From a virus, in the UHGV virus genome UHGV-1359486: a DNA stretch of 37,770 bases; one strand, given 5' to 3'. Numbering within the stretch: the first letter of the stretch is position 1; every line of letters starts with the position of its first letter. The position numbers and the translations under genes were made by a program. The notes below the pieces were generated by a model. It worked only from the letters and a program-made list of their open reading frames with translations, made no database searches and had not been told where the DNA came from. Shown piece by piece: positions 25,339-33,589 of this stretch.

Positions 25339-25605
25339 CTACCGGATATTAATGTTTGATTTTTTACTTGCTACCTGTATGAAATAACGCAATAAATCGA
25401 CTGTCATCCATTGCTTTTCTGTGAGGTGGTATACCCATGAAATCAGTTTCTCTGCTGTATTGCAGACCTCAATATTGATTTCATAATTATTAATTTCGTC
25501 GTCACTTAGACGAAAAACGAAGTAGTTACCTTCAACTGTTAAAATCTTGCTCAATTCTTCGTATTTGGCTTTAACTTCACCGGTATCCATTTGTTTTAAA
25601 CTCAT
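25339..25605 (-). CDS. Hypothetical protein (88 aa) downstream of helicase
   Basis: ATGA overlap with helicase stop. Confidence 0.5.
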
Positions 25606-26969
25606 ACATCTGCTCCTTTAAATCTGCGTTGTGCTGGCTGGCTGCTCTGCTGACAGATATTTGCGGCCATAGCCTGGTCCGTATCGAGAAAGTGCCCGTC
25701 TTTGAATAGCTGATACACGGTCCCTAATTTCCCGAATCGGTTCTTTGTTACGATAATTTCAGCATAGTTCGCTGCGGGGGAGTTCTCATTATACACGCCG
25801 TCCCGGTACAGCATGATGATGGCATCCGCATCCTGCTCAACGCTTCCTGAATCGCGAAGGTCAGCATTCGTCGGGCGCTTGTTTGGGCGTTTTTCCACAT
25901 CACGGGATAACTGGCTGAGAGAGATAACCGGGGTCCGCAGGTCCTTAGCCATTGCTTTCAGGCTTGCTGAAATGTGACCAATAGCCAGGTCATTACGCTC
26001 TGCCTTTGGTTTTTCAATCAGGCCGAGGTAGTCGACAAGGATAAGAGATAAATTCGGATTGGCCCGCTTGTGCCGACCTGATATCGCACGGATTTGTTCG
26101 ACCGTTAATTTACTGGCATCGACAACCCAAACATCGAGATCCACTATGCGGCCCATGCCGACGGTAACCTTTGTCCAGTCTTCCTGGTCCATCTTCGCCG
26201 GATTACGCAGGGATGAAACCGGCATGCTTGCGGCCCCTGCAATCTGACGCTCGATAATCTGCTGAGAGTCCATTTCCATTGAGAAAATCAAAACGCCTTT
26301 CTTCTGGCTGGTCCCGCGAATGGTCTGTGAAGCAACGCCTTTGGTTATTCTCAGCGCCAGCTCTGTCTTACCCATGCCGGGCCGGGCCGCAACAATAACC
26401 AGGTCAACAGGGTTTATCCCGCCAGTAATATCATCAAGGTCCGGGATGCCGGTTTTCAGCGTGTCAGATTCATAGCCATTCTGGACCCGCTTTTCAAGCA
26501 TCTGCGCGTAGTCTTCGGCTATTTCCTTCAGGTGAACGGGCCGGATCTCATCCTGCGGGGCCCGGATTTCAGATGCCTTTGCCAGAAACTGGTCCATTGC
26601 TTCAGTCGCTGCGTCGACGGTCCCGTGTTCGATTTGTCCGCGCACAGAGTCCATCAGCTCAATCATCTTCCGGCGGCAGTGAAGGTCCACAACCATCTTC
26701 GCGTAGCCTTTCAGGTTGGCGGCGCTCGGACAGTTTTTCGCGGCCTCCATCACGTTGCTGAACTGATCACCCATTTCCTCGGCAACCATCAGAACGTCAA
26801 TCAGGCCACGGGCCTTCGCCTGCTTCCTGATAACCTCATAGGTCCTGCGGCAAAATCCGGACCCGAAGAATTCAGGCTCCATCGTGGCGAGAACATCACT
26901 GGCATCCTGTGTTAACCCGCTAATCAGCAGGCCACCGATAACACTCGATTCAACTTCAAAATTAATCAC
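25602..26969 (-). CDS. Replicative DNA helicase, DnaB family (P22 gene 12 analogue)
   Basis: GTG 2 nt after O stop with GGGAGG RBS; Walker A ARPGMGKT; DnaB N-terminal motif; track ORF 25602..27125 extends upstream in frame. Confidence 0.85.
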
Positions 26970-26971
26970 GA

Positions 26972-27808
26972 CTACCTCCCTGTGAGACTTGGTTTTCCTT
27001 CGCGGACCGCTGTGAGCGTGTCTTCCTTCAGCAGATATTCGATGTCGGCCGTCCATCCGCGATCGCCTTCCCCGAAGTAAAATGGCTTGGCCATCCTGAC
27101 GAAAGCCCTGACATAGGCCCGCCATCCGTCGACGTTTGGAGTTGCCAGTTTCGGTATTATTTTCTTCAGGTCACGCTTTCGCTTCTCAGTGACATCGATG
27201 GCGTGAGGCAGGCGATCACCAACTTCCTCGTTGTAGGCAATGAGATATTCGTCGTAATTGATTTTCACTGCCCGGCGCTTTTTAGGTTTAACCAACCCTT
27301 CCGTTTCACCCCCAACGGGGGTATGGGGGTTAGTTTCTTTCTTTTCTTTTGTAATAGTTTCTTTTGTGTGACTCTGTTTTGGTGACAACGCTGTCACCGT
27401 TTTGGTGACACTTTTTGTCACTGTTTTGGTGACATTGTCACCAGAGTAGTTACACCCCGTTATTTCCCACTCACTCACGTTCTTGTTTGGCCCGATTCTC
27501 GGTCCATCCATAACGACTACACGCATTGCTATCAGCTCGTTTTTCGCCTTGTTAACTTTCTGACGTGGCAGGTTGGTCAGTTCGCTTAACTGGCTGTCAG
27601 CAATGCGGTCCGACTTCTTGCCAAAGCCGTAAGTTTTCCGGCAAATGGCGTGTGCTACCTTGGCCTGATTTTTTGTTAAGTCGGCGCCTATCAGGGCCTC
27701 ATACAGAGCATTTGCAAGTCTGGTGTACCCATCATCAAGATCTGCCACCGTTGGCCTCTCTTGCCGTCGTGCGGCTCCAAAGTGAGCGTATGCAACGTTA
27801 CTGTTCAT
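26972..27808 (-). CDS. Replication initiator O (lambda O / P22 gp18 family)
   Basis: N-terminal domain [30 protein letters not shown]...[11 protein letters not shown] matches lambda O; ATG at 27806-27808 with GGAGG. Confidence 0.85.
27331..27442. repeat. Replication origin: AT-rich tract plus three dyad-symmetric iterons (GGTGACA..TGTCAC) at 27381, 27404, 27428
   Basis: Read directly: GGTGACAACGCTGTCACC, GGTGACACTTTTTGTCAC, GGTGACATTGTCACC each preceded by TGTTTT/CGTTTT, about 23-bp period, inside the O gene. Confidence 0.7.
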
Positions 27809-27968
27809 GCCGTTTACCTCCGGTGATTTCCTGTCGGTGTTCAAGGCGTAATTTCGCATCATCAAATGCCGCCCTGAGTGCCTTTGCTCCCTGCTCCGTT
27901 ACGGCTCTCGCCTCACGTTCCCGCATGATGTTTTTGTGCACAGCGCTGTAATTAAACCGTTGTTTCAT
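27798..27968 (-). CDS. Possible small basic protein (56 aa) between cII and O
   Basis: Hand-translated ORF, weak RBS; stop overlaps O start. Confidence 0.25.
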   Translation of the reverse strand: MKQRFNYSAVHKNIMREREARAVTEQGAKALRAAFDDAKLRLEHRQEITGGKRHEQ

Positions 27969-27994
27969 GTATAATTACTCCAGTGTGTGATTTA

Positions 27995-28321
27995 CTAATG
28001 CGCCTCTGCTGCTCCAACAGCCGGGGCGTTTTCTTTTGTTCTCATCAGAGAGAGTTCGCCGATCTGCTTCCACAGAAACCGGTACTCTTCCTCGCTGATT
28101 TTCTTCTCGCCTGGCAAAACAAAATCTGTGATACCGGCTGCGGCCAATGTCTCGCATATCTCCGGTAACTTTTCTGTTCTGCGTAAGACTGTTGAATCGT
28201 GTACACCGAGCAGTTTTGCAACCACTGTCTGTGTGGTACTTCTCAGTGCCTGATGAGCAGTTGCCATCAGATGATTTGACACAAACCGGTTAAACGATTT
28301 GCGTGGATTTGCATTTTCCAT
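27995..28321 (-). CDS. CII-like transcriptional activator
   Basis: 108 aa with HTH (TQTVVAKLLGVHDSTVLRR); between cro and O. Confidence 0.65.
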   Translation of the reverse strand: MENANPRKSFNRFVSNHLMATAHQALRSTTQTVVAKLLGVHDSTVLRRTEKLPEICETLAAAGITDFVLPGEKKISEEEYRFLWKQIGELSLMRTKENAPAVGAAEAH

Positions 28322-28391: not shown

Positions 28392-28434
28392 GTTCCAGCA
28401 CATATCCGGAACGGGCTAAATTGTGTAAAGAGCG
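28392..28434 (-). promoter_or_regulatory. nutR-like site: boxA CGCTCTTTACACAA + hairpin with loop AUAUGUG and U-run
   Basis: Read on minus strand between cro and cII. Confidence 0.45.
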
Positions 28435-28443
28435 GTGCTGATT

Positions 28444-28644
28444 TTATTTTTTGCCTTGTTGTAGCCACGCCGCGCTACATTTCAGGGCTTTTGATAATTC
28501 AAAAATGAATCGTGGGCGCTTAGTTGAACCAGACTCAATCGCCTGGATAGATTGCTGCTTAATGCCAACAAGCTCAGCGAGTTGAGACTGAGTCAGATTC
28601 AACTCACAACGCCGAGCTTTTACACGTTGAGAGATGGTTTCCAT
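28444..28644 (-). CDS. cro: Cro-like repressor
   Basis: 66 aa XRE-type HTH (LTQSQLAELVGIKQQSIQAIESG); divergent from cI across operator region. Confidence 0.8.
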   Translation of the reverse strand: METISQRVKARRCELNLTQSQLAELVGIKQQSIQAIESGSTKRPRFIFELSKALKCSAAWLQQGKK

Positions 28645-28661
28645 ACTTTCTTATCTCCTTT

Positions 28662-28724
28662 ATACAGTTTTATCTGTATTTAATAACAGATACACCTGTT
28701 TGTCAAATACAGTTTTTATTGTGA
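28662..28724. promoter_or_regulatory. OR operator region: three 18-bp sites (28662-28679 ATACAGTTTTATCTGTAT; 28684-28701; 28707-28724) with PR (-35 TTGACA, -10 TTAAAT on minus strand)
   Basis: Inverted-repeat half-sites ACAG/CTGT read directly between cro and cI. Confidence 0.7.
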
Positions 28725-28752
28725 AAATCCCTTTATTACAGGGGGTGGAAAA

Positions 28753-29385
28753 ATGAGTCTTGCCAGCAGAGTAAAAAGTCGTCGCCTTGCGCTCGAAATG
28801 ACACAAACAGAGGCAGCAGAAAAAGCAGGAATTAAACAGCAGTCGTGGGCGTCTATTGAAGATGGTAAGACTGTTAAACCTCGTAATATAATTGCGATTG
28901 GCGCTGCATTGCAGTGCGACCCAGGGTGGCTGATGACGGGAGATAATATTCAGCCAATCAGCGAGGTAAATACACGGAAGATACCTCTAATTAGTTACGT
29001 ACAGGCGGGAAACTTGGCTGAAAGCATACCGATCAGTGATTGTGACGGGTCTTTTGAGTACGTTCTTACCGATCAGGACTTATCTCATAATGCGTTCGCC
29101 CTTCGTATTGAAGGTGATTCAATGGAGCCTGATTTTAAAACCGGCGATGTAGTGATTATCGATCCTGAGATAGAGCCGCATCCAGGTGAGTTTGTTGTCG
29201 CGTCTAATGGCGAGCAAGAGGCAACATTCAAGAAATACAGGCCTACCCATGTCATGATTAATGGTGACCAGCACTACGAGTTAGTCCCACTCAATGACGA
29301 CTATCCAGTGCTCGATAGCGAGAAAATCAATCTCCGGATAATCGGTACAATGGTAGAGCACCGAATTTACCGAAGAAAAAGGTAA
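28753..29385 (+). CDS. cI: CI-type repressor (HTH + S24 LexA-like autopeptidase domain)
   Basis: 210 aa; N-terminal HTH; GDSMEP (Ser) and FKKY (Lys) catalytic dyad context. Confidence 0.9.
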   Translation: MSLASRVKSRRLALEMTQTEAAEKAGIKQQSWASIEDGKTVKPRNIIAIGAALQCDPGWLMTGDNIQPISEVNTRKIPLISYVQAGNLAESIPISDCDGSFEYVLTDQDLSHNAFALRIEGDSMEPDFKTGDVVIIDPEIEPHPGEFVVASNGEQEATFKKYRPTHVMINGDQHYELVPLNDDYPVLDSEKINLRIIGTMVEHRIYRRKR

Positions 29386-29398
29386 CACGCATTTAAAC

Positions 29399-29422
29399 CA
29401 ACCCGCTTCGGCGGGTTTTTTT
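29399..29422 (+). terminator. Rho-independent terminator after cI
   Basis: CCCGC-TTCG-GCGGG followed by TTTTTTT. Confidence 0.65.
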
Positions 29423-32787: not shown

Positions 32788-33589
32788 CCCACCAATCGCA
32801 CAGGCGGACCTGCAAAAAGCACAAGGGACCGCGGTTAAAGAAAAAACAAAAGACCAGCAGCTAATCCAGTTCATAAACCAGCCAGGCATGAAAGCTCAAC
32901 TAGCAGCCGCCCTGCCGAGGCATATAACACCGGACCGCATGATCAGGATTGTCACCACCGAGATACGGAAAACTCCATCACTGGCAACCTGTGACATGCA
33001 AAGCTTTATCGGCGCTGTTGTTCAGTGCTCGCAACTTGGCCTTGAGCCAGGTAACGCATTGGGCCACGCCTACCTCCTTCCGTTCGGCAATGGTAAAGCG
33101 GCATCAGGGCAATCAAATATTCAGTTAATTATCGGATATCGCGGCATGATCGACCTCGCCCGCCGATCCGGTCAAATTATCAGTATATCGGCCCGCACTG
33201 TGCGCGAAGGTGACAGTTTTCATTTTGAATATGGCTTAAACGAGGACCTTACACACGTACCCGGCGAAAATGACTCGGGCCCAATCACCCACGTTTATGC
33301 AGTGGCCCGCCTGAAAGAAGGTGGTGTTCAGTTTGAGGTTATGTCTTTCTCTCAGATTGAGAAGGTCCGCGATTCAAGCAAGGCCGGTAAAAATGGTCCA
33401 TGGGTATCTCACTGGGAAGAAATGGCGAAAAAGACCGTCATCCGCCGCCTGTTCAAATATCTGCCGGTATCTATCGAGATGCAGAGGGCCGTCATTCTGG
33501 ATGAAAAAGCAGAGGCCAACGTGGACCAGGAGCATGCATCTATTTTTGAAGGTGAGTACGAAACTGTATCGCCGGAATCCGCGGGGTAA
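32780..33589 (+). CDS. recT: RecT-family single-strand annealing protein
   Basis: 269 aa; LLPFG, IGYRGMIDLARRSG motifs; coupled downstream of the nuclease. Confidence 0.85.
   Translation: MSNPPIAQADLQKAQGTAVKEKTKDQQLIQFINQPGMKAQLAAALPRHITPDRMIRIVTTEIRKTPSLATCDMQSFIGAVVQCSQLGLEPGNALGHAYLLPFGNGKAASGQSNIQLIIGYRGMIDLARRSGQIISISARTVREGDSFHFEYGLNEDLTHVPGENDSGPITHVYAVARLKEGGVQFEVMSFSQIEKVRDSSKAGKNGPWVSHWEEMAKKTVIRRLFKYLPVSIEMQRAVILDEKAEANVDQEHASIFEGEYETVSPESAG

What the first reader, a model, noticed from the sequence alone, without database searches (positions are those of the whole stretch)
27331..27442. ori embedded in the O gene: three palindromic iterons plus AT-rich tract
Three GGTGACA..TGTCAC dyads at about 23-bp spacing, each preceded by (C/T)GTTTT, lie beside a 45-bp AT-rich run inside the O reading frame, mirroring lambda ori. 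They encode the repeated VTKT/VTKS segment of O.
Basis: partly seen in the sequence, partly recalled or inferred. Interest (0 to 1): 0.35.

Follow-up and report, generated by a model that had tools for sequence, protein, structure and literature searches.

The report
Lambda-type replication origin inside O gene
This is an ordinary lambda-style phage replication origin, four initiator-binding repeats plus an easily melted AT-rich stretch, lying inside the phage's own initiator gene in a Morganella-type prophage.

Summary
Window 27331-27454 lies inside an O-family initiator gene on the minus strand (26972-27808; Pfam Phage_rep_O, E 8e-39). It holds repeated GGTGACA/TGTCAC dyads next to a 38-bp tract that is 76% A+T.

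An ungapped comparison with the annotated lambda origin fixes the anatomy. There are four 19-bp iterons of the form TGTCACC-AAAAC-GGTGACA, with start-to-start spacing of 20, 24 and 23 bp, the same as lambda ITN1-4. They abut an AT tract that matches lambda's at 31 of 38 positions.

- **DNA-level selection:** identical residues use the identical codon in 31/33 cases in the origin against 31/76 in the N-domain. The spacers between iterons vary freely among 42 distinct relatives while the arms stay fixed.
- **Arms track the initiator:** arm sequence changes with the O N-domain class across 14 phages, at constant geometry.
- **Mosaic modules:** the same iteron/N-domain module is found joined to DnaB-type helicase, lambda P or Sf101 gp45-type partner genes.

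A C5-N3-C5-N3-G5 element just past the AT tract (27309-27329) also looks constrained at the DNA level and was not in the finding. Verdict: a textbook kind of origin, a new member of a known kind, of low interest.

The parts
27436..27454 (-). Iteron 1 (coding strand TGTAACTACTCTGGTGACA). It is degenerate, with a non-AAAAC centre and a C>A change in the left arm relative to close relatives.
   Evidence: 1 mismatch to the dyad pattern; position homologous to lambda ITN1; relatives carry TGTCACTACTCTGGTGA(C/T)A, and Proteus phage V3 has a perfect TGTCACCAAAACGGTGTCA at this position.
27416..27434 (-). Iteron 2 (coding strand TGTCACCAAAACAGTGACA).
   Evidence: 0 mismatches; collinear with lambda ITN2.
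27392..27410 (-). Iteron 3 (coding strand TGTCACCAAAACGGTGACA), a perfect 7+5+7 dyad.
   Evidence: This exact 19-mer was found in more than 120 IMG/VR contigs, and 108 of 109 with full context have the O N-domain motif in frame upstream.
27369..27387 (-). Iteron 4 (coding strand TGTCACCAAAACAGAGTCA). Its right arm is degenerate and it abuts the AT tract, as lambda ITN4 does.
   Evidence: 2 mismatches; 11/19 identical to lambda ITN4, the same position. Conserved in relatives.
27331..27368 (-). 38-bp AT-rich tract, the presumed DNA-unwinding element (coding strand CACAAAAGAAACTATTACAAAAGAAAAGAAAGAAACTA; 76% A+T, 76% purine on the coding strand).
   Evidence: 31/38 identical to the lambda AT tract. 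The 5' part is invariant in the five-phage alignment. A relative in each of the other iteron classes carries a closely similar tract.
27309..27329 (-). C5-N3-C5-N3-G5 element (coding strand CCCCCATACCCCCGTTGGGGG; dyad ACCCCC-GTT-GGGGGT at 27308-27322). It is a probable third component of the origin in lineages that use a DnaB-type helicase.
   Evidence: present in P22, HK544, Midgardsormr38, PSTNGR2lys and phiEt88; Pro codon CCC in 12/14 cases inside the element against 5/54 elsewhere in the same genes; found only in contexts followed by a DnaB-like helicase (9/14 against 0/34 with the other two partner types). Its function is inferred only.
26972..27808 (-). O-family replication initiator gene (278 aa). 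It has an N-terminal Phage_rep_O domain, an origin-encoded linker, and a C-terminal half of the P22 gene 18 type.
   Evidence: PF04492, E 8e-39, residues 21-114. (38% identity to lambda O). (51% identity to P22 over residues 21-271). GGAGGT lies 7 nt before the ATG.
25602..26969 (-). DnaB-family helicase gene, with a GTG start 5 nt after a GGAGG. It is the presumed protein loaded at the origin.
   Evidence: DnaB_C E 3e-77, DnaB N-terminal domain E 3e-12. The Proteus phage V3 record annotates the same arrangement.

Best explanation
Window 27309/27331-27454 is the replication origin of a lambdoid prophage of the Morganella type. It is homologous to lambda ori and lies in the linker-coding middle of the initiator gene O, which is on the minus strand.

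Proposed mechanism, by analogy with lambda:
1. Dimers of O bind, through the N-terminal domain, to each of four 19-bp dyad-symmetric iterons (TGTCACC-AAAAC-GGTGACA). The two inner, near-perfect sites fill first.
2. The four bound, bent sites form an O-some.
3. On negatively supercoiled DNA, and helped by rightward-operon (pR-type) transcription through the region, this complex melts the adjacent 38-bp AT-rich tract.
4. The C-terminal half of O, which is of the P22 gene 18 type, brings in the phage-encoded DnaB-family helicase made by the next gene. Lambda instead uses P to hijack the host DnaB.
5. Host primase and polymerase then start theta replication.

What is shown: the anatomy, its homology to lambda, selection acting on the DNA itself, and the link between arm sequence and initiator class. 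What is inferred from lambda and P22 biochemistry: binding, bending, melting, helicase loading and the role of transcription.
For: 1. **Gene context.** The order cI / cro / cII-like / small ORF / O / DnaB-like helicase is as in lambdoid phages.
2. **Collinearity with lambda.** The alignment with annotated lambda ITN1-4 plus AT tract is ungapped. Iteron spacing is identical (20, 24, 23), identity is 69/127, and the AT tract matches at 31/38.
3. **Not chance.** Four of the five pattern hits in 37.8 kb cluster within 86 bp, against 1.19 expected in the whole window.
4. **DNA-level constraint.** Third-codon-position identity is 0.88 in the origin against 0.40 in the N-domain versus Proteus phage V3, and 0.83 against 0.51 versus Sf101. 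Identical residues use the identical codon in 31/33 against 31/76 cases (Fisher 6e-8), and in 30/34 against 40/75 cases (4e-4).
5. **Register.** Among 42 distinct relatives' cores, mean entropy is 0.105 for the arms of ITN2-4 and 0.70 for the inter-iteron spacers. The spacers change even the encoded amino acids.
6. **Link to the initiator.** 108 of 109 IMG/VR contexts of the exact ITN3 19-mer carry the O N-domain motif RKTYG in frame upstream.
7. **Constant geometry, changing arms.** Across 14 phages, dyads sit at the same offsets from the AT tract. The arms change with N-domain class: ATCCCTC in lambda/933W, ATTAGCT in HK544, TTTACC in P22, TGTTACC in phiEt88, TGTCTC in N7 and TGTCACC here. 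Both arms always change together. Class-specific residues cluster at positions 36-56.
9. **Module boundary.** Nucleotide homology to Sf101, mEp043 and PhiR12 ends exactly at the end of the AT tract, at 27330. This fits an N-domain-plus-origin unit that is exchanged as a block.
Against: - No experiment bears on this sequence. O binding, unwinding and replication are all inferred.
- The two outer iterons are degenerate. ITN1 has a non-AAAAC centre and a C>A change in its arm that close relatives lack, so it may bind weakly.
- The consensus promoter scan did not call a pR between cI and cro. A TTGACA with a plausible -10 is visible there.
- Whether the prophage is intact and inducible was not examined.
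- The covariation between arms and N-domain class follows phylogeny and module linkage, so it is correlational.
Confidence: 0.9

Rival explanations
1. O binds three dyads of the form GGTGACA-N(1-5)-TGTCAC(C), and the GTTTT runs are only spacers.
For: These dyads exist and two of them are perfect 7-bp inverted repeats. Because neighbouring units share the same arms, either register gives dyad symmetry.
Against: - The inner gap is 4, 5 and 1 nt, so the half-sites would face different sides of the helix. The 19-mer register has a constant 5-nt centre.
- The gaps are the most variable positions among 42 relatives (entropy about 1.0-1.2 for two of the three), while AAAAC is conserved.
- Lambda's annotated and footprinted iterons align without gaps to the 19-mers (PMC7466680).
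- The same offsets hold in every other lineage examined.
Confidence: 0.05
2. The repeats are kept for the protein, as a repetitive VTKT/VTKS linker peptide, and have no role as DNA.
For: The segment is translated and encodes a short repeated peptide between two domains.
Against: - Synonymous sites are frozen here and nowhere else in the gene (31/33 against 31/76).
- The spacer codons change amino acid freely between relatives, for example A-L, G-L and E-V at the ITN3/ITN4 spacer.
- Other lineages encode unrelated peptides at the same place but keep the DNA dyads and their geometry.
Confidence: 0.02
3. The dyads act as RNA or transcription signals. They would be hairpins in the O mRNA, or intrinsic terminators for antisense (+ strand) transcription, since each + strand hairpin is followed by GTTTT.
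For: The terminator scan calls three sites on the + strand at 27380-27423. The single strand folds better than shuffles, with a z-score of -4.7.
Against: - The T run is only four bases and is itself the iteron centre.
- In other lineages the centre is not T-rich on either strand (AAGTT in N7, GAATC in PhiR30_1), yet the dyads persist.
- No Rfam family matches.
- Strong folding is an automatic consequence of repeated dyads.
Confidence: 0.02
4. It is a decayed remnant: a lambda-type origin by descent that no longer fires in this prophage.
For: ITN1 carries a C>A arm change absent from its closest relatives, and ITN4's right arm is degenerate. This exact O protein is not in the 15-billion-protein collection.
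Against: - O and the helicase are intact ORFs with good ribosome-binding sites.
- ITN2, ITN3 and the AT tract are intact. In lambda, the two iterons nearest the AT tract plus that tract suffice in vitro (PMC7466680).
- The degenerate form of ITN4 (AGAGTCA) is shared with many relatives.
Confidence: 0.08

Closest known systems
Bacteriophage lambda ori (ITN1-4 plus AT-rich tract inside gene O; NC_001416 39034-39160)
   Same: It sits in the middle of the initiator gene. It has four roughly 19-bp dyad iterons with AAAAC centres at identical spacing (20, 24, 23). A 38-bp AT tract directly abuts ITN4 and is 31/38 identical. The O N-domains are homologous (38% identity overall; Pfam Phage_rep_O).
   Different: The iteron arms are TGTCACC/GGTGACA rather than ATCCCTC/GAGGGAT. 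The C-terminal half of O is not of the lambda type. The next gene is a DnaB-family helicase, not P. The lambda dyad TTCGTCAGAGAATTCTGGCGAA to the right of the AT tract is replaced by a C5-N3-C5-N3-G5 element.
Replication modules of phages Sf101, SEN22, mEp043 and PhiR12_1-5, and the matching E. coli prophages (174 of 5426 complete E. coli genomes)
   Same: They share the same iteron class (TGTCACC..GGTGACA), the same four positions and the same AT tract. The N-domain is about 69-77% identical in protein, and the N-domain plus origin is about 79% identical in DNA.
   Different: Their O C-terminal halves and partner genes differ: a 626-aa ES18 gp61-like protein in Sf101 and mEp043, and lambda P in PhiR12_1. 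Homology to the window stops at the end of the AT tract. Their database records annotate only the O gene, not the iterons. I found no paper in the searchable library that describes this iteron sequence.
Salmonella phage P22 gene 18 / gene 12 module (and HK544/HK97-type)
   Same: The C-terminal half of the initiator is homologous (51% over residues 21-271). The partner is a DnaB-type helicase. There are four roughly 20-bp repeats inside the gene, and the C5..C5..G5 element follows the AT tract (PMC8022706).
   Different: P22's iteron arms are TTTACC/GGTAAA, and its N-domain specificity region differs (HQLLIVMAVW against [10 protein letters not shown]).
Proteus phage vB_BPM-V3 O/helicase module
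   Same: This is the closest full-length relative. O is 74.8% identical over 97% of its length. It has the same iteron class and AT tract and the same O-then-DnaB-helicase order.
   Different: Its ITN1 is a perfect dyad, whereas the window's is degenerate. Its C5 element is degraded (ACACCCCTTACCCCTCAC).

Membership tests
Lambda-type phage origin (ori-lambda family) | Lies inside a Phage_rep_O-family initiator gene, between the N-terminal DNA-binding domain and the C-terminal partner-binding part | tested here: met
   PF04492 covers residues 21-114 (E 8e-39). The iterons are encoded by codons 118-146 and the AT tract runs to codon 159. The C-terminal half is homologous to P22 gp18.
Lambda-type phage origin (ori-lambda family) | An array of about four 18-19-bp imperfect inverted repeats (iterons) spaced 20-24 bp apart | tested here: met
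   There are four copies at 27436, 27416, 27392 and 27369, with spacing 20, 24 and 23 as in lambda.
Lambda-type phage origin (ori-lambda family) | An AT-rich tract of roughly 38-40 bp directly after the last iteron | tested here: met
   27331-27368 is 38 bp, 76% A+T and 31/38 identical to lambda's tract. It is the G+C minimum of the gene.
Lambda-type phage origin (ori-lambda family) | Constraint on the DNA itself, beyond what the encoded protein requires | tested here: met
   Identical-codon use is 31/33 in the origin against 31/76 in the N-domain (Fisher 6e-8), and 30/34 against 40/75 (4e-4). Arm entropy is 0.105 against 0.70 for the spacers.
Lambda-type phage origin (ori-lambda family) | Iteron sequence matched to the initiator's N-terminal domain (origin specificity) | tested here: met
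   Seven arm classes in 14 phages track the N-domain class, with both arms changing together. 108 of 109 occurrences of the 19-mer lie in O genes. This is correlational, not a binding test.
Lambda-type phage origin (ori-lambda family) | The initiator binds the iterons, melts the AT tract and supports replication | not testable with these tools
   This needs footprinting or EMSA, KMnO4 probing and a plasmid replication assay.
Lambda-type phage origin (ori-lambda family) | Lies in the pR operon, so that rightward transcription passes through or near the origin (transcriptional activation) | tested here: inconclusive
   The gene order and orientation cro > cII-like > O on one strand, divergent from cI, are as in lambda. 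A TTGACA is visible at 28706-28701. The consensus scan called no promoter on that strand.
P22 gene 18/12-type replication module | Initiator C-terminal half of the gp18 type, followed by a phage DnaB-family helicase | tested here: met
   51% identity to P22 over residues 21-271. The next gene matches DnaB_C at E 3e-77.
P22 gene 18/12-type replication module | P22-specific iterons (TTTACC..GGTAAA) and the matching N-domain | tested here: not met
   The window has TGTCACC arms and a different specificity region. It is therefore a hybrid: not of P22 origin specificity, though it has a P22-type helicase-recruiting half.
Plasmid-type iteron origin (direct repeats bound by Rep monomers, with DnaA boxes) | Directly repeated, non-palindromic iterons and nearby DnaA boxes | tested here: not met
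   Each unit is a dyad. DnaA-box-like matches are at chance level (32 against 34.6 expected), and none lies in 27000-27900.

The most novel reading that the evidence does not exclude
The C5-N3-C5-N3-G5 element immediately after the AT tract (27309-27329) may be a distinct cis-acting part of lambdoid origins that use a phage-encoded DnaB-type helicase. It could be a G+C clamp that bounds the melted region, or a loading or priming signal for the helicase. It would be maintained at the DNA level by forced use of the rare CCC and GGG codons, and would travel with the C-terminal (partner) module rather than with the iteron/N-domain module.
Probability: 0.35. Interest if true: 0.35.

Novelty: new member of a known kind. 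Interest (0 to 1): 0.15.

Why it matters
For annotation, it places the replication origin of this prophage, and of a widespread set of relatives, to the base pair and gives the correct binding unit. Those relatives include Sf101, mEp043, the PhiR12 phages, about 3% of complete E. coli genomes and more than 120 IMG/VR contigs.

It also adds a documented origin-specificity class (TGTCACC-AAAAC-GGTGACA) to the classical lambda, P22 and HK97-type set. One neighbouring class, phiEt88/Midgardsormr38, differs by a single base per arm, which would make a convenient pair for studying initiator specificity.

The same iteron/N-domain unit is found joined to three different helicase-recruitment modules, and homology breaks exactly at the end of the conserved AT tract. 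This is a clean example of module exchange inside a gene. None of it changes how such origins are thought to work.

Tried and rejected
Rejected in favour of four 19-bp units, on constant geometry, spacer variability and collinearity with lambda.
- **Antisense terminators or RNA hairpins.** The scan calls them, but the T run is the iteron centre and is not conserved across lineages. Rfam gave nothing relevant (one weak rsmX hit at 29337-29421, E 0.033, far below the gathering score).
- **Protein-level repeat.** Rejected on the synonymous-site data.
- **DnaA boxes near the origin.** At chance level, none near the origin.
- **PDB sequence search with O.** No hit at E up to 1, so no structural inference was made and no structure was predicted.
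- **Exact look-up of the O protein.** Not in the collection. The cI protein is identical to Morganella morganii entries, which is the only basis for the host assignment.
- **Literature search for the iteron sequence, or for iterons in Sf101 or mEp043.** Nothing found in the searchable library. Older subscription papers, such as Grosschedl and Hobom 1979 and Backhaus and Petri 1984, could not be read.
- **Promoter scan for pR.** Not called under the tool's criteria.
- **Lambda right-hand dyad count.** My regular expression was too strict, so the 'lambda-dyad' against 'other' split among P-type contexts is not meaningful.

Full report
**What is there.** The finding lies in a gene on the minus strand, 26972-27808, with its ATG at 27808 preceded by GGAGGT. 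The 278-aa product matches Pfam Phage_rep_O (PF04492) over residues 21-114 at E 8e-39, and is 38% identical to lambda O. The neighbourhood is that of a lambdoid immunity/replication region:
- an S24-peptidase cI-type repressor at 28753-29385 (+);
- a divergent Cro-like HTH gene at 28444-28644 (-);
- a cII-position gene at 27995-28321 (-);
- a 56-aa ORF at 27798-27968 (-);
- O;
- a DnaB-family helicase at 25602-26969 (-), with DnaB_C at E 3e-77.

The cI protein is identical to Morganella morganii database entries. The exact O protein is not on record. No phage record and no complete E. coli genome holds the region at high identity.

**Checking the observation.**
- GGTGACA on the + strand at 27381, 27404 and 27428, with inverted partners;
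- a preceding (C/T)GTTTT;
- the AT-rich run;
- the VTKT/VTKS peptide.

The pattern TGTCAC-N7-GTGACA with up to two mismatches gives five hits in 37.8 kb against 1.19 expected, and none of 100 shuffles reached five. Four of the hits lie within 86 bp at 27369-27454. The G+C of 40-nt windows falls to 22.5% at 27330-27369. Only 0.9% of 40-mers in the whole window are as low.

**Register and number.** The repeat finder returns a 19-nt unit in four copies, with starts 23, 24 and 20 apart on the + strand. On the coding strand they read:

| Iteron | Window coordinates | Coding-strand sequence |
|---|---|---|
| ITN1 | 27454-27436 | TGTAACTACTCTGGTGACA |
| ITN2 | 27434-27416 | TGTCACCAAAACAGTGACA |
| ITN3 | 27410-27392 | TGTCACCAAAACGGTGACA |
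| ITN4 | 27387-27369 | TGTCACCAAAACAGAGTCA |

I fetched the annotated lambda record, in which ori iterons 1-4 are features at 39034, 39054, 39078 and 39101. Laid against the window without gaps, the starts have the same spacing (20, 24, 23), and the AAAAC centres coincide. ITN4 abuts the AT tract in both. Identity is 69/127 overall and 31/38 in the AT tract: lambda CACAAAAGACACTATTACAAAAGAAAAAAGAAAAGATT against window CACAAAAGAAACTATTACAAAAGAAAAGAAAGAAACTA. The AT tract is 38 bp, the length quoted for lambda (PMC3349717).

The "(C/T)GTTTT" is the iteron centre seen on the opposite strand.

**Evidence that the DNA, not only the protein, is under selection.** The closest relatives are Proteus phage vB_BPM-V3 (full length) and Sf101, SEN22, mEp043 and PhiR12_1-5 (N-domain plus origin only). 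In a protein-guided codon comparison:

| Comparison | Measure | N-domain (codons 20-117) | Origin segment (codons 118-159) | Fisher p |
|---|---|---|---|---|
| vs Proteus V3 | third-position identity | 0.40 | 0.88 | |
| vs Sf101 | third-position identity | 0.51 | 0.83 | |
| vs Proteus V3 | identical residues using the identical codon | 31/76 | 31/33 | 6e-8 |
| vs Sf101 | identical residues using the identical codon | 40/75 | 30/34 | 4e-4 |

Of 109 with full context, 108 carry the O N-domain motif RKTYG in the same frame upstream. Among 42 distinct cores of standard architecture, the arms of ITN2-4 have mean entropy 0.105 and the inter-iteron spacers 0.70. Two of the three spacers reach about 1.0-1.2 bits and change the encoded residues. 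ITN3 is invariant by construction of the search.

**Comparative anatomy.** I took O genes from 14 phages and anchored them on the T-K-(D/E) codons that start the AT tract. Perfect or near-perfect dyads sit at the same offsets in every lineage, but the arms differ:

| Arm class | Phages |
|---|---|
| ATCCCTC | lambda, 933W |
| ATTAGCT | HK544 |
| TTTACC | P22, PSTNGR2lys, PhiR30_1 |
| TGTTACC | phiEt88, Midgardsormr38 |
| TGTCTC | N7 |
| TGTCACC | window, Proteus V3, Sf101, mEp043, PhiR12_1 |

Both arms always change together.

The N-domain tracks these classes. Residues Y36, I40, N47, A52, H53 and C56 are invariant in the TGT(C/T)ACC classes and absent from the others, and the segment around residues 82-90 also varies by class. 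PSTNGR2lys shares its first roughly 30 residues with Proteus V3 but then switches to the P22-type sequence and P22-type iterons. This places the specificity determinants after residue 30. All of this is correlational.

**Mosaic structure.** Nucleotide homology between the window and Sf101, mEp043 and PhiR12 ends at 27330, the last base of the AT tract. Downstream, the same iteron/N-domain unit is joined to different modules:
- a P22 gp18-type C-terminal half plus a DnaB-like helicase, in the window and Proteus V3;
- a lambda O C-terminal half plus P, in PhiR12_1;
- a third type followed by a 626-aa ES18 gp61-like protein, in Sf101 and mEp043.

Among distinct IMG/VR contexts the partners are DnaB-like in 14, Sf101 gp45-type in 19, lambda P in 15, and none recognised in 2.

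**A further element.** Directly after the AT tract the coding strand reads CCCCCATACCCCCGTTGGGGG (27329-27309), containing the dyad ACCCCC-GTT-GGGGGT. The same C5..C5..G5 arrangement follows the AT tract in P22, HK544, Midgardsormr38, PSTNGR2lys and phiEt88. Inside it, proline is CCC in 12 of 14 codons, against 5 of 54 elsewhere in the same genes. In the IMG/VR set it occurs only where a DnaB-like helicase follows: 9/14 against 0/34 with the other two partner types. It therefore looks constrained at the DNA level and belongs to the partner module. Lambda has a different dyad at the corresponding place, TTCGTCAGAGAATTCTGGCGAA. That this lambda dyad counts as part of the lambda origin is from my memory and was not checked here. 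The function of the C5 element is unknown; I record it as a probable part of the origin.

**How it most likely works.** By homology with lambda (PMC5043065, PMC7466680, PMC3349717), the steps would be:
1. O dimers bind each 19-bp dyad, the inner near-perfect ones first.
2. The bound and bent array forms an O-some.
3. On supercoiled DNA, with transcription from the rightward operon, the adjacent 38-bp AT tract opens.
4. The C-terminal half of O, here of the P22 gene 18 type, recruits the phage's own DnaB-type helicase rather than the host DnaB via a P protein.

All biochemical steps are inferred. No DnaA boxes accompany the site.

**Rivals.** The first three are contradicted by the geometry, the spacer variability, the synonymous-site data and the cross-lineage comparison. 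Decay cannot be excluded, because ITN1 carries a C>A arm change that close relatives lack. However, ITN2, ITN3, the AT tract, O and the helicase are all intact.

**Novelty.** An origin inside gene O, with lineage-specific iterons, is textbook. Published P22-like genome papers note four roughly 20-bp repeats in gene 18 (PMC8022706). The TGTCACC class is already present in deposited phage genomes, whose records annotate only the O gene. I found no description of it in the searchable literature. This is a new member of a known kind, and interest is low.

Noticed in passing
window 27309-27329 (minus/coding strand CCCCCATACCCCCGTTGGGGG): A C5-N3-C5-N3-G5 element lies directly after the AT tract and is shared with P22, HK544, phiEt88, Midgardsormr38 and PSTNGR2lys. 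Proline is coded by CCC in 12/14 cases inside it against 5/54 elsewhere in the same genes. It is found only where a DnaB-type helicase gene follows (9/14 against 0/34).
   Followed up: partly
window 27970-28038, + strand (antisense to the cII-position gene's 3' end): This may be an OOP-like antisense unit. A TATAAT at 27970-27975 lies between O and the cII-position gene. A terminator-like hairpin at 28010-28028 plus a T run lies inside the 3' end of that gene, the arrangement of lambda pO/oop. No Rfam match.
   Followed up: no
window 28660-28752, between cI (28753 +) and cro (28644 -): A TTGACA at 28706-28701 (minus strand) and several ACAG-N6-CTGT-like palindromes (ACAGGTGTATCTGT, ACAGATAAAACTGT) look like pR with OR operators. 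The consensus scan did not call a promoter on this strand.
   Followed up: no
window 28392-28412, minus strand: A terminator-like hairpin (GTTCCGGATATGTGCTGGAAC followed by ATTTTT) lies between cro and the cII-position gene, where lambda has tR1.
   Followed up: no
window 27330/27331 boundary; loci L002-L004: Nucleotide homology to Sf101, mEp043 and PhiR12 stops exactly at the end of the conserved AT tract. The same iteron/N-domain unit is joined to three different partner modules, so the AT tract may serve as a recombination junction for module exchange.
   Followed up: partly
L010 (Providencia phage PSTNGR2lys) O gene, first ~30 codons: Its O protein starts with the same roughly 30 residues as Proteus phage V3 (MSNVAYADFGNQRRQERPNVADLDNGYT) and then switches to P22-type sequence and P22-type iterons. 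This is a mosaic joint inside the N-terminal domain.
   Followed up: no
one IMG/VR locus among L014-L133 (not identified by id): This is the single occurrence of the exact 19-mer outside an O gene. The context is ...TGTCACCAAAACGGTGACAatgcAATAGTTCGTCACCATAACGGTGACAttttt..., with further GTCACC/GGTGAC repeats and no RKTYG motif upstream. It may be an intergenic origin or an unrelated binding array.
   Followed up: no
window 32908-33004, minus strand: ARAGORN calls a 97-nt tRNA-Gly (TCC) inside a region covered by long ORFs. The length is unusual for a tRNA, so it may be a false call.
   Followed up: no
L011, L009 (phiEt88, Midgardsormr38): Their iteron arms (TGTTACC/GGTAACA) differ from the window's class by one base per arm, and the N-domains are 55-62% identical. 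They form a natural pair for mapping origin specificity.
   Followed up: no
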